A stretch of 62,170 nt of DNA, filler included, from Squatina squatina (lineage: Eukaryota), in the NCBI GenBank assembly GCA_031763465.1. It is 3 parts of 3 records of this genome, joined end to end, with 100 filler letters (N's around TTAATTAATTAA, not from the genome) between each part and the next. Parts side by side here need not be neighbours in the genome. Positions count along the whole stretch, not along the records: positions 15,685 to 44,759 come from JARFOE010000001.1; 2 more parts are not named here. The stretch is one strand, 5' to 3'. Shown in pieces: positions 35,096 to 44,759 of this stretch. The position numbers were made by a program, and so were the translations under genes. Each line of letters opens with the position of its first letter. Position 1 is the first letter of the stretch. The notes beneath the pieces were generated by a model that was given only the letters and a program-made list of their open reading frames with translations, did not search any database and was not told where the DNA came from.

Positions 35096-35699
35096 TTTGA
35101 CCTCACAAAGGCCTTTGACCCTGTCAACCGGGAGGGATTATGGAGAGTTCTTTAAAAATTTGGCTGCGCACAAAAATTCGTCACCATCCTCCGCCTGCTC
35201 CACAATGACATGCAAGCTGTGATCCTCACCAATGGCTCAACCACAGACCCAATACAAGCGCAAACTGGGGTCAAGCAAGGCTGTGTCATCGCACTGAAGC
35301 TCTTCTCCATTTTCCTCGCTGCAATAGTCCATCCCATCTCTATGAAGCACCCCGCTGGAGTCGAGCTAATCTATAAGTCGAGTGGGAAACTGTTCAACCT
35401 CCAGCGCCTCCAGTCCAGAGCCAAGACCAGCCCAATATCTATCATCGAACTGCAGTTTGCAGACGACGCTTGTGTGTGGGCACACTCGGAGGCTGAGCTC
35501 CAATCCATCGTCGACTTATTCACTGAGGTGTATGAGAGAATGGGCCTCACACGACAAAATCCAACACCGCCTCCAGTGTGCCAGCACAGCCTTCAGCCAC
35601 TTGAGGAAGAGAATGTTTGAAGATAAAACCTCAAATCCGCCACCGAGCTCATGGACTACAGGGCAGCAGTGATCTCTGCCCTCCTGTATGTGGCGGAGA
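35096..35699 (+). mobile_element. RTE-clade LINE reverse transcriptase fragment (degenerate)
   Basis: FDLTKAFDPVNREGLW...TGVKQGCVIALKLFSIF...IIELQFADDAC; frameshift and internal deletion. Confidence 0.85.
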
Positions 35700-37850
35700 N
35701 NNNNNNNNNNNNNNNNNNNNNNNNNNNNNNNNNNNNNNNNNNNNNNNNNNNNNNNNNNNNNNNNNNNNNNNNNNNNNNNNNNNNNNNNNNNNNNNNNNNG
35801 GATAATTGTACCCAAGTAGGGATTTTGTTGTTGTGGGCCATTAGCATTGCACCTCCAGTGCAAAAGTGCCCCCTGGCAAGACCTAGTGGCAGCCAAAGGG
35901 GCAGGAAATTTAATGCAGCTCTGCGAGATTGGGACCTTCTGTCTGCTGGTGGAGATCAGCCATTAGGTAGTCTCTATAGTTTTCTGATCTCTGGTGAGGA
36001 TAGGGAACGCCTGCGGAAATTCTATTCCTGTATGTCAACAAATAAAACATAAGTAAATCAAACGCTTTAAGCAACAACTAGTGACACTCACAACCCTGAG
36101 TACTGGGAATGCTGCGAGGCAAAATGTTAGATTGGGCAAGAGGCATGATGATGGTAACCAATAAATGTCAGATGTCAATGGAAAATAAAATCGGGCAAGG
36201 TGTAAATTGGGTAGCCAATCTGATCTTTTCAGTTTCCCATTGGGCAGGTTAGGTTAAAGTTATCCCCTATATTCCTGTCCTCAGGAATATGTTCCAGAAG
36301 TCGCTCTACCTTGTCATAGCACTCATCTGCTTTAAAAAATCTCCTCAAAATCCTTTTCTTTGATCATAAATTTGCTACCCCTCTCCCACCTTATCCCCCT
36401 CAATTTCCCCTTGGTGTCCATAGTTTCTCATCCTTAATATAACACACTTTGAGACATGTTACATGTACATTAAGAGCGCTATAGAAATGGAAGTTGCTTT
36501 TATGGGTTGGACATCCCCTGGACCTCTGAAATTACTGCTCTGCAATCACTTCCAGTTCTCTAGTAATCATTGTAAAAGATATTTGCACGGACACTTTATT
36601 TGTTATCAACCTCAGCCTATTCCTCAACCAATCCATGGTAACATTGTCACAGACCCATTGCTCTGAACACAAAGAGCACTGACAGTAACTGTTAGCACTG
36701 GCAGCATTTTCCAGCATAGAATCAGTCAAAAAAGAATAAAACCCCACATATAACTGAAACAAAGTATTTCATGCAATAATAGACAGAAGGGAGTGATTTG
36801 AAGGAAACAATCTAACCTTGAAGTTCAGATGATAGGAAACAGCCCAGACTTTGCACTTGCAGCTTACGATGCAAACTGAACCACTCAATGAGATTACAGG
36901 CTTGTAATAACTCCCAGGGATTCATTATTTTCTGCGTTTAAAGGGTTAATTTAAAACTGCAGTTTTATTATGTGCTTTTAAAGCTGAAGTACAATTCAAC
37001 ATAAATACTGTATAAAAATACAAAGAAAACTAGTCCTTGTTCTGTTGAAATTAGAGCACAATGAAAAACATCTGCAATGTAAATAACATCCAGTAACTTC
37101 ACTGAGGAGAATCTACATTGTGTTTTAAACAATGTGGGGGCCCAATTGGAGAGCACCGGAACGAGGCATTGAATTGGTGGATGCCTTGCTCTGTGAGCGC
37201 CGACCCGGGAGTGAAGTGTATTGACCTGGAATTCGGGTCTTTGGCTCATTTCCGGGTCAGCGCAACGTGGCAATGCTAATGGAATGTTGCCATGCGCTGT
37301 CCTGGCGAATTGCCGGGGAGTGCCACAGATGCGCCATGCTGCCGAGTCCAGCCCANNNNNNNNNNNNNNNNNNNNNNNNNNNNNNNNNNNNNNNNNNNNN
37401 NNNNNNNNNNNNNNNNNNNNNNNNNNNNNNNNNNNNNNNNNNNNNNNNNNNNNNNCCGGGAGCAGCCCAGGGAAAGCCCCAGCCCTAGAATGGACAATTT
37501 GGATCCCCCCCCCACGTTTGGAATCATTTGGTACCAGGCCCTCGCTGCTGGGAGTGCAGAGGAAGGTGGCTGAAGAGACAACCTTGTGGTGCCTCAGAAC
37601 GGATGGGGTAGCCCTGTTCTCCCTGGGCATTCTCGCGAGCAGGATACACCGGCCAGGACATCATTCTGCTGTTATCATGTGAGTTCTGGTGAGACTGGCT
37701 CTGTACATGCAAACTAAACAGAAAGTTCATTTTAAAGAAAAATCAGTGCTCTGTATGTTCATTTGACATGTGCTGGTGAAAGAGGAGGAGCGGATACACA
37801 GAGCGGGAGCAGGTAAGGGAGAAAATTGCTGGAAAATATTTATTTTTAGG

Positions 37851-37918
37851 AGAGGGTTCGTGAGATTTGGCATTTTCATGAAAGGGGTTCACAGGATGTT
37901 AAAGTTTGGGAACCACTG
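37851..37918. mobile_element. hAT (Charlie-like) DNA transposon terminus
   Basis: aaagtttgggaaccactg is the reverse complement of CAGTGGTTCCCAAACTTT; adjacent ccttagag resembles the Charlie target consensus; other end not found. Confidence 0.6.
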
Positions 37919-39890
37919 CCTTAGAGTATGTTTCAGCTTCAGCCGTTTTTCCCAGGTAGGTGACCGTCAATGAGCACCAATCTACTTCAGAGGTCACACT
38001 TTCGCACCACACGATCCCCAAGAGAAGCGCTAATGCACTCTTCATCTTTTCCTCTTTTATTCCCTTGTAAAATAAAATAGGCAAAAGTTCGCTCAACGTT
38101 GGCCCCTACTACACTATTCAGGCTATGCAGATCCGATTGGTTAAGTAAGCAACTTATTCATATACACAATTTACATGTGTGCCCTTGGCATTTATGACTC
38201 CTCAAGTTATACTTCAGGCCTCTAGGGCTAATGTGCTTTCTGTTGACACCTCTTGTTGCCATTCTTTGAGGGGCTGGGACTGATATTGGTGGCCCTTGTG
38301 GCTGTCTCTGTGGCTGTATCCCCATAGGTACACCCTCATCTTCCATGGTCCACCATTTTATCCTTCTCCTAACAATCTCTTCCGCTCTCTGTTGTTTCCT
38401 TTGCGGTTTGTATAGTTTCATTTGATTGATGTGGAACGATTTCATCATCTTGGGTAGTTGTACTGCATATAGCATTGGGCTAGCTTTTTCCACAATAGGA
38501 CACGGTCCCTTATACAGCAGTTCAAACACTCCTACCTGAGCATAATTCCTTACCATCACCTGATCCCCTGTGTGCCATTCCTGCGATTTGTCTGGTTCTA
38601 AATTCATTTTATTGGCTTGATGTTTTCTGCCAATATTCCCTGCAGTTTGTCTGCAGAGCTCCTCTAACTGTTTCTTCAGGTCTTTCAAAATCCATTCTGA
38701 GTTATTTCATTCTCCTGTCTTTCAGTCAGAACAGGTACCAATAAGTGTACTAGTGTTCTCATAGTTGTCCCTGTCATCAACTCATGAGGTGAATACCCTG
38801 TTGTATGAGAGGTACTTCCTCTGATATCCATTAACACCAGTGGTAACACTTCATCCCATCTCTTCTTTTGTTCTCCCAGTACTTTCCAACGTCTTTCTTT
38901 TAGGATTCTATTCATGCGCTCTACAATCCCTGAGGACTGCGGATTTTGGCTTACATGCCATTTCACTACAAAACCCAGCAGTTTCAAAGTTCCTTGCATT
39001 ATCTGTCCAGTAAAGTAACTTCCCTGATCTGATTCCATGATCTGTGGTAATCCCCATCTGGAGAATACCCCCTTCACCAGGATTTTAGCCGTAGTTAGGA
39101 CAGTAGCTGCCTTACATAGAAACGCCTCAACCCATTTGGTGAAGTTATGTACCAGTACTTATTCCCTGTGCTGAAAGTTGGGAGAGGTCCTATAAAATCT
39201 ATCTGCACTCACTGCCAAGGTCCTTCTGATCTTCAGGTCTGCCCCAAAGGTGCTTTTCTCCTATGTGGGTCTGGATTATTGGCCACACAAATCAGATAAT
39301 TATGATAAAAATCTTCCACATCCTCTCTGATGAGGCTACCATCCCACTGTATTTACACTTCACCACTTTTCCTCTACATGAGGATACCCTACTTCCGGTC
39401 CCCCATGTACAAATGGGACAAAATCCTCCCTCTGGACTGCAGGTACCACCCATTTATCATTCTTAAACAACATCCTTTCTTTTATTCCCACTTCAGGTCT
39501 TCCATAGTGTCCCTCGACAGTCTCCCCCTTTTCTAGTATGCCTAATACCTCCCTGAGTGCTGGATCTGCCTTTTGCGCTTCCGTAAGATTAGGGTGACCA
39601 GATTTTAGGAAGGCCAGACAGGGCCAAAATTTACCTGTCTGATCCGTCGAGAGACTGTGCATGCGCAGTCAGGTCTCTGTCCTGACGGCAAAAAAAGGAA
39701 CATTTGAGGCTCTTTGAAAGAATTGTTGAGTCACCAGGACATTTGGGGAAAAACCGGGACTGTCCCGGCAAAACCCGGGATGTTTGGTCACCCGAGTACG
39801 ATCATCACTCTCATTGGCTCAACCGCTGCCATCATTGCTATTTCCCTCATTCTTTCCATGGGATCCCAAGGCACTCCTCCTACAGAGCCT
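37919..39890 (-). mobile_element. Degenerate LTR retroelement / endogenous retrovirus-like pol (integrase) with possible env start
   Basis: Across frameshifts and stops: LTEAQKADP...WVVP...VHGGPEVGYP...GW*P...NYLIC (decayed HHCC), GPWQ*VQIDFIGPLP, FTKWVEAF, VFSRWGLPQIMESDQG-(35 aa)-ERMN, TGYSPHELMTG, EWHTGDQVMV...YKGP...FHINQMKLY (GPY/F-like). Confidence 0.9.
39590..39795. mobile_element. hAT-Blackjack-like MITE nested in the retroelement pol
   Basis: TIRs tagggtgaccaga / tttggtcacccga; subterminal ccgggactgtcccggcaaaacccggga; flanking direct repeat gtaagat / gtacgat. Confidence 0.7.
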
Positions 39891-41310
39891 NNNNNNNNNN
39901 NNNNNNNNNNNNNNNNNNNNNNNNNNNNNNNNNNNNNNNNNNNNNNNNNNNNNNNNNNNNNNNNNNNNNNNNNNNNNNNNNNNNNNNNNNCAACCCCATT
40001 CCCTGGCGGTCCAGCAATGGCCCCTTCTCCTTCGTCCAGTCAGCAGCTTGGCCCTCCCCTTTAATGAAAGGGGAGGGCCTGTCTTCCCGCCAGCGCTATG
40101 CGTCCCTCCACATAGTGCTGGAAAATTCACGTCCCTTTGCGCTCCAGTCCTGCTCCTGAGAGGACGTGGAGTGCGAAATTTTGCACTTCACTTCCTCTCG
40201 TGAGCAGTAAGTTCGCACAGGAAGTCCTGCCTTACAGCTGTTAAAGGGGCAGTCCTGAATTTTCAGTCGCAGATCTTCAAAATATATATAAAGTAATATA
40301 ATAGAGAAACCAGTGATTTTGTATAAGTCATCAATTTTTCAATATGGGCATTATTATACATTAACTATGTGGAATACTTTGGCTGTTGGCATCCACTGCA
40401 ACACCCAATGGGAAAAATAAAACAAATCGACCCCATAAAATGCTACAATATGCATTATAAAGAATAATTAATTCAATTATAACTGATTTTGAAGTTAGAA
40501 TCTCATTTCAGAGTTGCAATAATGGTTTTAAACTGCTCAAACATCACTTTCATGGTATATAAATCTTTAATTTGTGAAGAATACAAATAGTTGGTTTGTT
40601 ATGTGTTTAAAAACCTGCACCAAAAAGAGTTCAGCTTGAGTTTATAAGCAAGTCAAATAATGAAAATAATAGTGGAGTTTGATCCATGGTGTTGATTTTA
40701 TAACTTAATTTTTTATTTTATAATGTAATAAGATAAACACAATTTTATGCACATTGAATGTGTATCCCCACCACTCAAGCAGCAGAATATGTTATCCATA
40801 GATTACTTTTACCACCCATGATCGAGCTGAGAACTGAAGAAGACTTTCTTGACAGACCTGACTGTGTAGCACATTGGAATTTAGTTGTTAAGGATACAGA
40901 TATCCTATATCACTGGGGCTTGTGAAGCAAGTTTCCTATGACTGTGCCATTCAATCTCCAATTGTTTTACAAAACCGGAATTTTCCCATGTTCTTTAAAC
41001 CATTTATTTGCAAAACAAACCAACTCCAGAATTCTAAAATACAATATTTTGAATAACCTTAAGCATAGNNNNNNNNNNNNNNNNNNNNNNNNNNNNNNNN
41101 NNNNNNNNNNNNNNNNNNNNNNNNNNNNNNNNNNNNNNNNNNNNNNNNNNNNNNNNNNNNNNNNNNNNCTCAGTACTGCACTGGAGTGTCAGCCTAGATT
41201 GCTGTATTTAGGGAAGGTAACACTTAAGTATTCAAGGGAATGCATAAATTGAAACCCAATAATCATTAGTAATTTTCGCAGGGGTTCTCCCGATCTCCAC
41301 CACAACTCTA

Positions 41311-41478
<168 letters not shown>

Positions 41479-43999: not shown

Positions 44000-44759
44000 T
44001 TCACCGGAGGTCAATTTGGATGTGTGCAAAATGCGCACCACCTAAATTATGCTGGGGTGATCGGGGACATCAAGATCAGCTCTCCGAATCTTAATATAGA
44101 CCATGGAGCTCATTACNNNNNNNNNNNNNNNNNNNNNNNNNNNNNNNNNNNNNNNNNNNNNNNNNNNNNNNNNNNNNNNNNNNNNNNNNNNNNNNNNNNN
44201 NNNNNNNNNNNNNNNNTTTTCCACAGCCTCTGTCACTTTGAGCTGCAACTGAATATGTGTATCTTGGATCAACATTTATGATTGGAAAAGTCTTTCAGTT
44301 TTCATGTTTGTTTTCTTGTAGACTATAAACCAGGAGTATCCATGGGGAGAATGTAATCCTAATATACAGCTGGAATATCATGACACTTATACAACTTATG
44401 GCTGCCTACAAGAGTGTAAATCAAAGCATATAAAAGAACACTGTGGCTGCACACCCTTTTTGCTGCCAGGTTAGTAAACATTTTCAAAGTGCATTTAAAG
44501 TGGGCCAGAGGACCATCAGACTTTACCTTTAAAGATTTAGATGTTGATTTTACACTGGTTCTGGTGAAATTAGAATGCCAAAGACATAGGGGAGGTTTTG
44601 AGGTCTCCTGAGCAGTGGAAATGGAATGGTACTGCCCCAAAAATGGTGAGGAATGACTTACTGCCCTGATCCTGGTATTATTGTGGCCATTGCAATCTGC
44701 CCCATCCTCCCCAACCTACTGCTGGTGGTAGACACTTTCAGTAAGCAAATCGGGGTCCT

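What the first reader, a model, noticed from the sequence alone, without database searches (positions are those of the whole stretch)
38158..39890. Decayed retroelement whose integrase resembles the NYNRIN/CGIN1 (lokiretrovirus-like) lineage
Seen: a complete integrase can be rebuilt across frameshifts and stops (several TGA stops look like CGA decay), with a degenerate HHCC finger, D-D(35)-E core and GPY/F-type C-terminus. From memory, WVVP..R.D....VH...GW(W)P, WVEAF, VFSRWGLP and EWHTGDQVM parallel the retroelement-derived integrase domain of mammalian NYNRIN (GWWP, WVEAFP, VFARWGVP, EWNVGDQVL). Inference: this may be a shark member of the poorly sampled lineage close to retroviruses, rather than an ordinary Gypsy element.
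Basis: partly seen in the sequence, partly recalled or inferred. Interest (0 to 1): 0.72.

Follow-up and report, generated by a model that had tools for sequence, protein, structure and literature searches.

The report
Shark retrovirus fossil with F-type envelope
This is a broken piece of an old retrovirus in a likely shark or ray genome; its family is likely a deep-branching ordinary retrovirus near snakehead retrovirus rather than a lokiretrovirus, and its envelope is predicted to fold like paramyxovirus and foamy-virus fusion proteins.

Summary
The integrase is real: minus strand, 39593-38158, with D-D(35)-E intact, four stops and three frameshifts. Sister copies (80-88% identical) supply PR, RT, tether, RNase H and a furin-site envelope. 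Gypsy is excluded by the dual RNase H plus env. Lokiretrovirus is excluded by RT: the family sits inside canonical Retroviridae (99-100 support in three reference trees). Family+Loki is rejected on RT+tether (AU p=2e-8), though not on RT alone (p=0.054). It lies near snakehead retrovirus and frog/coelacanth elements, but that sister link is unstable. The integrase is closer to Loki (44-50%) than to SnRV (33%), but integrase trees resolve nothing, and NYNRIN was not available to test. The family Env models as a paramyxovirus-F/foamy-Env fold. SnRV-like shark ERVs are published (Han 2015), but that elephant-shark copy has a gamma-type env. This scan reported the same kind of element before on other DNA (e1-8155269, e1-7789907).

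The parts
39796..39890 (-). End of RNase H and linker of pol; cut upstream by an assembly gap (39891-39990)
   Evidence: 82-90% identical to sister copies L004, L008, L021, which continue into RNase H and tether; GVPWDP at 39877; gap list
39590..39795 (.). 206-bp MITE (hAT-like; class name recalled) inserted in pol, 9-bp perfect inverted arms, 7-8-bp target duplication
   Evidence: Arms 39592-39600 / 39785-39793; empty site in L004, L008, L021; 40 of 1970 candidates scored, all matching at 80-90% apart from the self-hit
39155..39593 (-). Integrase N-terminal part: degenerate HHCC finger and first catalytic Asp, in two frames with four stops
   Evidence: 40% and 58% identity to P0002 residues 139-285
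38682..39158 (-). Integrase core with D(35)E, 157 codons open
   Evidence: Pfam rve; 64% to shark P0001/P0002; groups with the shark family 100/99-100
38158..38703 (-). Integrase C-terminal SH3/GPY-type domain and tail, up to the pol stop
   Evidence: 48% to P0002 440-544; weak SH3_Tf2-1 and Integrase_p58_C hits
38064..38086 (-). Pyrimidine tract plus AG, a likely splice acceptor for env mRNA (inferred)
   Evidence: Sequence directly; position upstream of the env ATG
37919..38045 (-). First 42 codons of env, beginning with a signal-peptide-like hydrophobic stretch
   Evidence: ORF 37899-38105; 80-88% identical to five copies that reach this point; L005, L017, L033 continue into a Cys-rich ORF, L005 as far as an RKRR site
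37903..37918 (.). Terminal repeat of a Charlie-like DNA transposon (name recalled) at which env homology stops; the other end was not found in the window
   Evidence: Junction against L005 and L033; pattern scan of the window

Best explanation
The stretch is the decayed 3' end of pol plus the start of env of an endogenous retrovirus, from an abundant family that is likely a deep-branching canonical (class III, SnRV-like) retrovirus of sharks and rays and not a lokiretrovirus. Shown in family copies: LTR end, tRNA-Arg(CCT) primer site, gag (coiled-coil start, one CCHC knuckle), PR-RT-tether-RNase H-IN, and env with signal peptide, an Ig-like region, furin site, fusion peptide, heptads and TM. 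Inferred: the ancestor entered cells with a class I fusion protein of the paramyxovirus-F/foamy type, made from a spliced mRNA; it primed reverse transcription with tRNA-Arg and integrated in the germ line. This copy then died, lost CpG and took two DNA-transposon insertions. It most likely makes no functional protein.
For: RT motifs: L002 (85% identical to the window IN and contiguous with it) has DISNGFWS and an LPQ-F-HNS motif like SnRV, whereas published Loki RTs have PFGY-NSP. RT trees: family inside canonical retroviruses at 99/98, 100/99 and 100/99 under a mixture model that includes the L002 piece; Loki is a separate 100/100 clade each time. With SnRV+frog+coelacanth at 95/95. AU test of family+Loki on RT+tether p=2e-8. 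RNase H: Loki+foamy 96/95 with the family outside. RT identity 45% to SnRV against 33-34% to Loki. Dual RNase H by Pfam. L081 is SnRV: its RT matches the supplement's SnRV, 10,688 nt and a 205-codon 3'ORF. Env: a profile from 24 family-like rows ranks 9 foamy Env ORFs (E 6e-8 to 6e-4) and SnRV Env (8e-4) above all other ORFs of L081-L113 (next 0.19). Model pLDDT 70; best matches NDV F Z 10.2, PIV5 F Z 9.2, foamy Env Z 8.0 over 244-288 residues; 36 Foldseek hits at E<=0.001, best 3e-9, mostly F-type glycoproteins. Primer site: 55 exact matches, 0 for the control; 4 of 12 fetched sit between the family LTR end and gag ATG; complementary to a tRNA-Arg(CCT) gene.
Against: RT alone does not reject family+Loki (p=0.054). 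The sister link to SnRV is not recovered on RT+tether, where the family is an unresolved basal branch. The IN is closer to Loki (44-50%) than to SnRV (33%) and groups weakly with Loki plus frog/coelacanth rows (85/54; 83/65). My Loki rows are all ray-finned-fish or unnamed proteins, labelled by eye against the supplement; no Odin, NYNRIN, ERV-L, ERV4, fish foamy-like, lamprey or amphibian Loki rows were available. The window holds no RT, so RT and most of env are taken from sister copies. The folded Env (L114) is from a sister subfamily (L036 vs L076 26% identity, E 1e-26). Fold rmsd values are high (5.5-19 A); Pfam Fusion_gly did not hit; hhalign to one foamy Env gave only probability 20%, E 0.001.
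Confidence: 0.85

Rival explanations
1. It is a shark lokiretrovirus, the first from cartilaginous fish.
For: Dual RNase H, F-like Env and Loki-like IN are all Loki features (PMC7947760). Family+Loki is not rejected on IN (p=0.27) or on RT alone (p=0.054). 0 of 6 chondrichthyan genomes had Loki in that paper, so it would be new.
Against: RT+tether rejects it (p=2e-8); RT motifs differ; RNase H lies outside the Loki+foamy group. A Loki RT query found nothing above 40% over full length among 144 of 2789 candidates scored in this genome.
Confidence: 0.05
2. It is a recombinant: a canonical class III gag-PR-RT-RH front joined to an IN-env block exchanged with lokiretroviruses, in either direction.
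For: IN and env are adjacent and both look Loki-like. IN identity 44-50%. By eye, Loki-Bsp Env shares three landmarks with family Env: the segment before the furin site, the GR-P-W/Y motif after the heptads, and the G-L-P strand. RT and RH disagree with IN. Domain replacement is reported for retroviruses (PMC7947760).
Against: IN support is weak. Foamy and SnRV Envs are also homologous, so shared ancestry explains env without exchange. Frog and coelacanth relatives have the same IN type, so any exchange would be very old.
Confidence: 0.25
3. It is an ordinary env-less Gypsy/Metaviridae LTR retrotransposon.
For: Family+Gypsy is not rejected on IN alone (p=0.26); some database names read 'Gypsy retrotransposon integrase-like'.
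Against: An env start lies in the window; dual RNase H; RT is separated from Gypsy by two starred branches.
Confidence: 0.01
4. It is a domesticated NYNRIN-like host gene.
For: RefSeq names of the shark hits.
Against: Four stops, three frameshifts, a MITE insertion and many dispersed copies; no KH/NYN part was seen next to it.
Confidence: 0.01

Closest known systems
Snakehead retrovirus (SnRV) and the SnRV-like ERV clade (clade Huo of Xu et al. 2018, PMC6001957; CmiERV lineage I of Han 2015, PMC4422223)
   Same: RT motifs and the best RT identity among named viruses (45%); grouped at 95/95 in the RT tree; coiled-coil plus single-knuckle Gag; weakly homologous Env. CmiERV lineage I shows the same RT and IN motifs by eye.
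   Different: IN is only 33% identical to SnRV and does not group with it; primer-site sequence differs from SnRV. CmiERV lineage I carries a gamma-type env (ISD and CX6CC, read by eye) where this family has an F-type env. No SnRV-like accessory ORFs were looked for.
Lokiretroviruses (Wang and Han 2021, PMC7947760) and Odin retrotransposons (PMC9040795)
   Same: Tether plus RNase H; IN 44-50% identical; F-like Env with an RxKR/RxRR site.
   Different: RT, tether and RNase H fall outside Loki; Env has about 230 extra N-terminal residues with an Ig-like region that Loki-Bsp Env lacks; Odin has no env.
Foamy viruses (Env structure, PMC11468914)
   Same: F-like Env fold and detectable TM similarity; best solved-structure hit of the IN core.
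   Different: Not in the foamy clade by RT, RH or IN; Gag has a CCHC knuckle; no Foamy_virus_ENV Pfam hit.
NYNRIN/CGIN1
   Same: Reported as sister to Loki IN (PMC7947760); automatic names of the nearest shark and frog proteins.
   Different: A single-copy therian host gene (PMC9447858); no direct comparison could be run here.

Membership tests
Lokiretrovirus | RT inside the Loki clade, outside canonical retroviruses | tested here: not met
   AU p=2e-8 on RT+tether, p=0.054 on RT alone; tested on sister copies, Loki rows from fish only
Lokiretrovirus | Dual RNase H (tether + RH) | tested here: met
   Pfam RT_RNaseH_2 plus RNase_H in P0003 and L071; same regions in own-subfamily copies L004, L021
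Lokiretrovirus | RH grouping with Loki and foamy RH | tested here: not met
   Loki+foamy 96/95 with the family outside; the tool warns of long branches
Lokiretrovirus | Env similar to Mononegavirales F | tested here: met
   By predicted fold; no Pfam PF00523 hit
Lokiretrovirus | IN grouping with Loki/CGIN1 | tested here: inconclusive
   Weak grouping; no alternative rejected; CGIN1 not available
SnRV-like class III ERV (clade Huo) | RT inside canonical Retroviridae, outside classes I, II and foamy viruses | tested here: met
SnRV-like class III ERV (clade Huo) | RT sister to SnRV | tested here: inconclusive
   95/95; open
Retroviridae | LTR-PBS-gag-pol-env order | tested here: met
   gag-pol-env colinear in L074; primer site after an LTR-like end
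Retroviridae | Paired LTRs and target-site duplication | tested here: inconclusive
   No LTR pair found in contig C21047; fragmented assembly
Metaviridae/Gypsy (env-less) | Single RNase H, no env, RT among Gypsy | tested here: not met
NYNRIN/CGIN1 lineage | IN sister to NYNRIN | not tested
   No NYNRIN sequence was returned; the paper's supplement lists it by name only in the part held

The most novel reading that the evidence does not exclude
This shark/ray family, with its frog and coelacanth relatives, is the basal grade of canonical retroviruses and keeps the ancestral module pair: a Loki/CGIN1-type integrase and an F-type Env homologous to Loki, foamy and SnRV Envs. The F-type envelope would then have been gained once, before Loki and canonical retroviruses split, and replaced in orthoretroviruses. 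NYNRIN's pol part could come from this grade and not from a Gypsy element.
Probability: 0.3. Interest if true: 0.72.

Novelty: new variant of a known kind. Interest (0 to 1): 0.45.

Why it matters
The copy itself is dead. The family bears on how retroviruses got their envelope. Wang and Han (PMC9040795) state that canonical and Loki Envs share no detectable similarity and list four scenarios. A canonical-RT family whose Env links by sequence to foamy and SnRV Env and by fold to F proteins argues for a single early F-type gain or an ancient exchange, and its many copies make this testable by phylogeny. It also warns that 'NYNRIN-like' names and integrase motifs misfile class III ERVs as Loki or Gypsy.

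Tried and rejected
PF00523 search of the genome: no match, and the controls did not ring either, so uninformative. Word-index search with the Env N-terminus: 0 of 1552 candidates. Env against PDB sequences: none. The search for related loci in viral contigs: none. The first Env model (N-terminal 486 aa, pLDDT 55) gave only weak Ig-type matches. Atlas search gave one unnamed cluster at 0.82. Sequencing runs: none was listed. ARAGORN found 0 tRNAs in 12 primer-site loci, as expected for primer sites. No LTR pair in C21047. IN and RH trees do not place the family. PMC9972966 (cartilaginous-fish foamy ERV) is not held, so I could not compare with it; my trees keep the family outside mammalian foamy viruses only. 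The ATG position printed is a script error; 38045 comes. Literature searches with 0 papers: SnRV+env+Mononegavirales+retrovirus; endogenous retrovirus+fusion glycoprotein+spuma+shark+envelope from 2021. Subscription papers, including Marco and Marin 2009 and Hayward 2015, were not seen. Earlier-findings look-ups by place and by sequence returned nothing.

Full report
Observation. The minus strand of 39593-38158 encodes an integrase in four frame segments that align to the Heptranchias protein P0002 at 40, 58, 64 and 48% identity. There are four internal stops and three frameshifts, and the score is 255 bits against at most 23.1 in 50 shuffles. D-D(35)-E is intact and the zinc finger is half lost. 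The stretch lies on one 2.4-kb contig between 100-N gaps at 37356-37455 and 39891-39990. A 206-bp MITE with a 7-8-bp target duplication splits pol at 39590-39795; three sister copies show the empty site.

After the pol stop come a pyrimidine-AG tract and an ATG at 38045 that opens 42 codons with a signal-peptide-like start, ending at a DNA-transposon terminal repeat at 37918. A search with this stretch gave 7 matches from 7 candidates, including the window. Copies L005, L017 and L033 continue into a Cys-rich ORF, and L005 reaches an RKRR site followed by heptads. L035-L040 carry later parts, including a TM-like stretch. These match env ORFs directly behind pol in sister-subfamily loci L074-L076 (L036 vs L076 E 1e-26).

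The family. The window DNA gave 43 matches from 40 of 342 candidates scored: a close subfamily at 76-93% and a wider one at 65-75%. P0003 gave 49 matches from 40 of 8401 candidates; an Env query gave 125 matches from 124 of 2087. Pfam shows PR, RT, tether, RNase H and IN in P0003 and L071, and a CCHC knuckle in Gag. L074 has gag-pol-env in order behind an LTR-like end and a primer site. The exact 18-mer occurs 55 times (control 0); 4 of 12 fetched are at this family's LTR-gag junction, and it complements a tRNA-Arg(CCT) gene. Nearest named proteins are from sharks and rays, so the host is inferred to be an elasmobranch. K2P distances from the window to ten close copies are 0.10-0.15. With the slow shark rate assumed in PMC4422223, that suggests well over a hundred million years, a rough inference.

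Placement. The supplement of PMC7947760 shows that the teleost hits such as P0004 are lokiretroviruses (matched by eye). It also shows that the family's RT motifs are those of SnRV. A motif scan fetched SnRV itself (L081) and 32 further retroviral contigs. These were labelled by tree position, with five checked by Pfam; 16 were used as rows. RT tree, 52 rows: Loki 100/100 apart, canonical retroviruses 99/98, and within them family+SnRV+frog+coelacanth 95/95; family+Loki p=0.054. RT+tether, 40 rows after dropping 12 short, long-branched or redundant ones: canonical 100/99, family+Loki p=2e-8, SnRV unresolved. Mixture model, 24 rows including the RT piece of the window's own subfamily (L002): same split, family basal and unresolved. 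An earlier tree without virus references agreed. RNase H, 30 rows: Loki+foamy 96/95, as published, with the family outside. IN, 58 rows and then 38 after dropping 20: the window core joins the shark family 100/99-100; the link to Loki plus frog/coelacanth rows is weak, and three alternative placements are unrejected. Odin, NYNRIN, ERV-L, ERV4, fish foamy-like and non-fish Loki rows were missing.

Envelope. phmmer over 1.84 billion representatives gave 31 hits at E<=0.001. Of 17 looked up, 15 are named from sharks or rays, 1 from a frog, and 1 is unnamed. A profile built without SnRV ranks 9 foamy Envs and SnRV Env first. The model of L114 (392 aa, pLDDT 70) matches NDV F (Z 10.2, rmsd 19, 288 aligned), PIV5 F (Z 9.2, rmsd 9.6, 265) and foamy Env (Z 8.0, rmsd 5.5, 244) among 48,161 chains, and F-type viral glycoproteins by Foldseek.

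What is known. PMC7947760 (parts 1-3 of 4 of the text, supplement searches and one part): Loki features, IN sister to CGIN1, 0 of 6 chondrichthyan genomes. PMC9040795 (parts 1-2 of 4): Odin and the env scenarios. PMC4422223 (part 1 of 2, supplement part 1): SnRV-like CmiERV lineage I, whose env reads as gamma-type by eye. Passages only: PMC6001957 (clade Huo), PMC11089739 (most chondrichthyan ERV RTs are clade III), PMC4299795 (ERV4; SnRV relatives unclassified), PMC11468914 (foamy Env is F-like), PMC9447858, PMC12440569, PMC10435555, PMC4977317, PMC12193657, PMC13709493 and bioRxiv 2023.10.26.564294. bioRxiv 2021.11.23.469661 (parts 1-2 of 6) covers gamma-type Envs only; its supplements were not seen. 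I found no paper describing an F-type Env in SnRV-like shark ERVs. Two earlier notes of this scan on other genomes reach the same reading; I had formed mine before looking, and they are not independent support.

Verdict. It works like a lokiretrovirus in layout (dual RNase H, F-type Env, similar IN), but it is not a member, because the defining RT test fails. It is a dead copy of a deep-branching canonical ERV of a kind already known from cartilaginous fish. Its IN and env combination was not found in print and is useful for the question of envelope origin. Interest 0.45.

Noticed in passing
window 41308-41478 (-) and 44322-44474 (+): Exons of tryptophan 2,3-dioxygenase and an ASIC-family channel (Pfam). 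The ERV fragment lies on the TDO2 strand, downstream of that exon across two gaps; intron or 3' flank was not settled.
   Followed up: partly
window 35156-35620 (+): Decayed non-LTR retrotransposon RT fragment (Pfam RVT_1).
   Followed up: no
G000:C528071 (L152): A second, more distant retroviral pol (30% over RT-RH, 49% over IN to P0003), possibly another class III lineage.
   Followed up: no
G000:C642609:1185-1595: 47% identity over 140 aa to the Loki RT query, the highest identity seen; not examined.
   Followed up: no
L043 (G000:C354596) and L073 (G000:C547346): Copies with most of env apparently deleted, keeping only its TM end or its start, as expected of intracellular spread.
   Followed up: partly
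P0106 (Chiloscyllium punctatum, 739 aa) and P0109 (Pelodytes ibericus, 723 aa): Long open Env homologs annotated as hypothetical host proteins; candidates for co-opted env genes or young insertions.
   Followed up: no
P0034 cluster: A duck/goose retroviral Pol cluster includes members labelled Priestia megaterium, probably contamination of a bacterial assembly.
   Followed up: no
P0036, P0088, P0089: Pristiophorus japonicus gene models fuse pieces of this family to host genes (intrinsic factor-like, Niban-like, ZFP2-like): annotation artefacts or exonisation.
   Followed up: no
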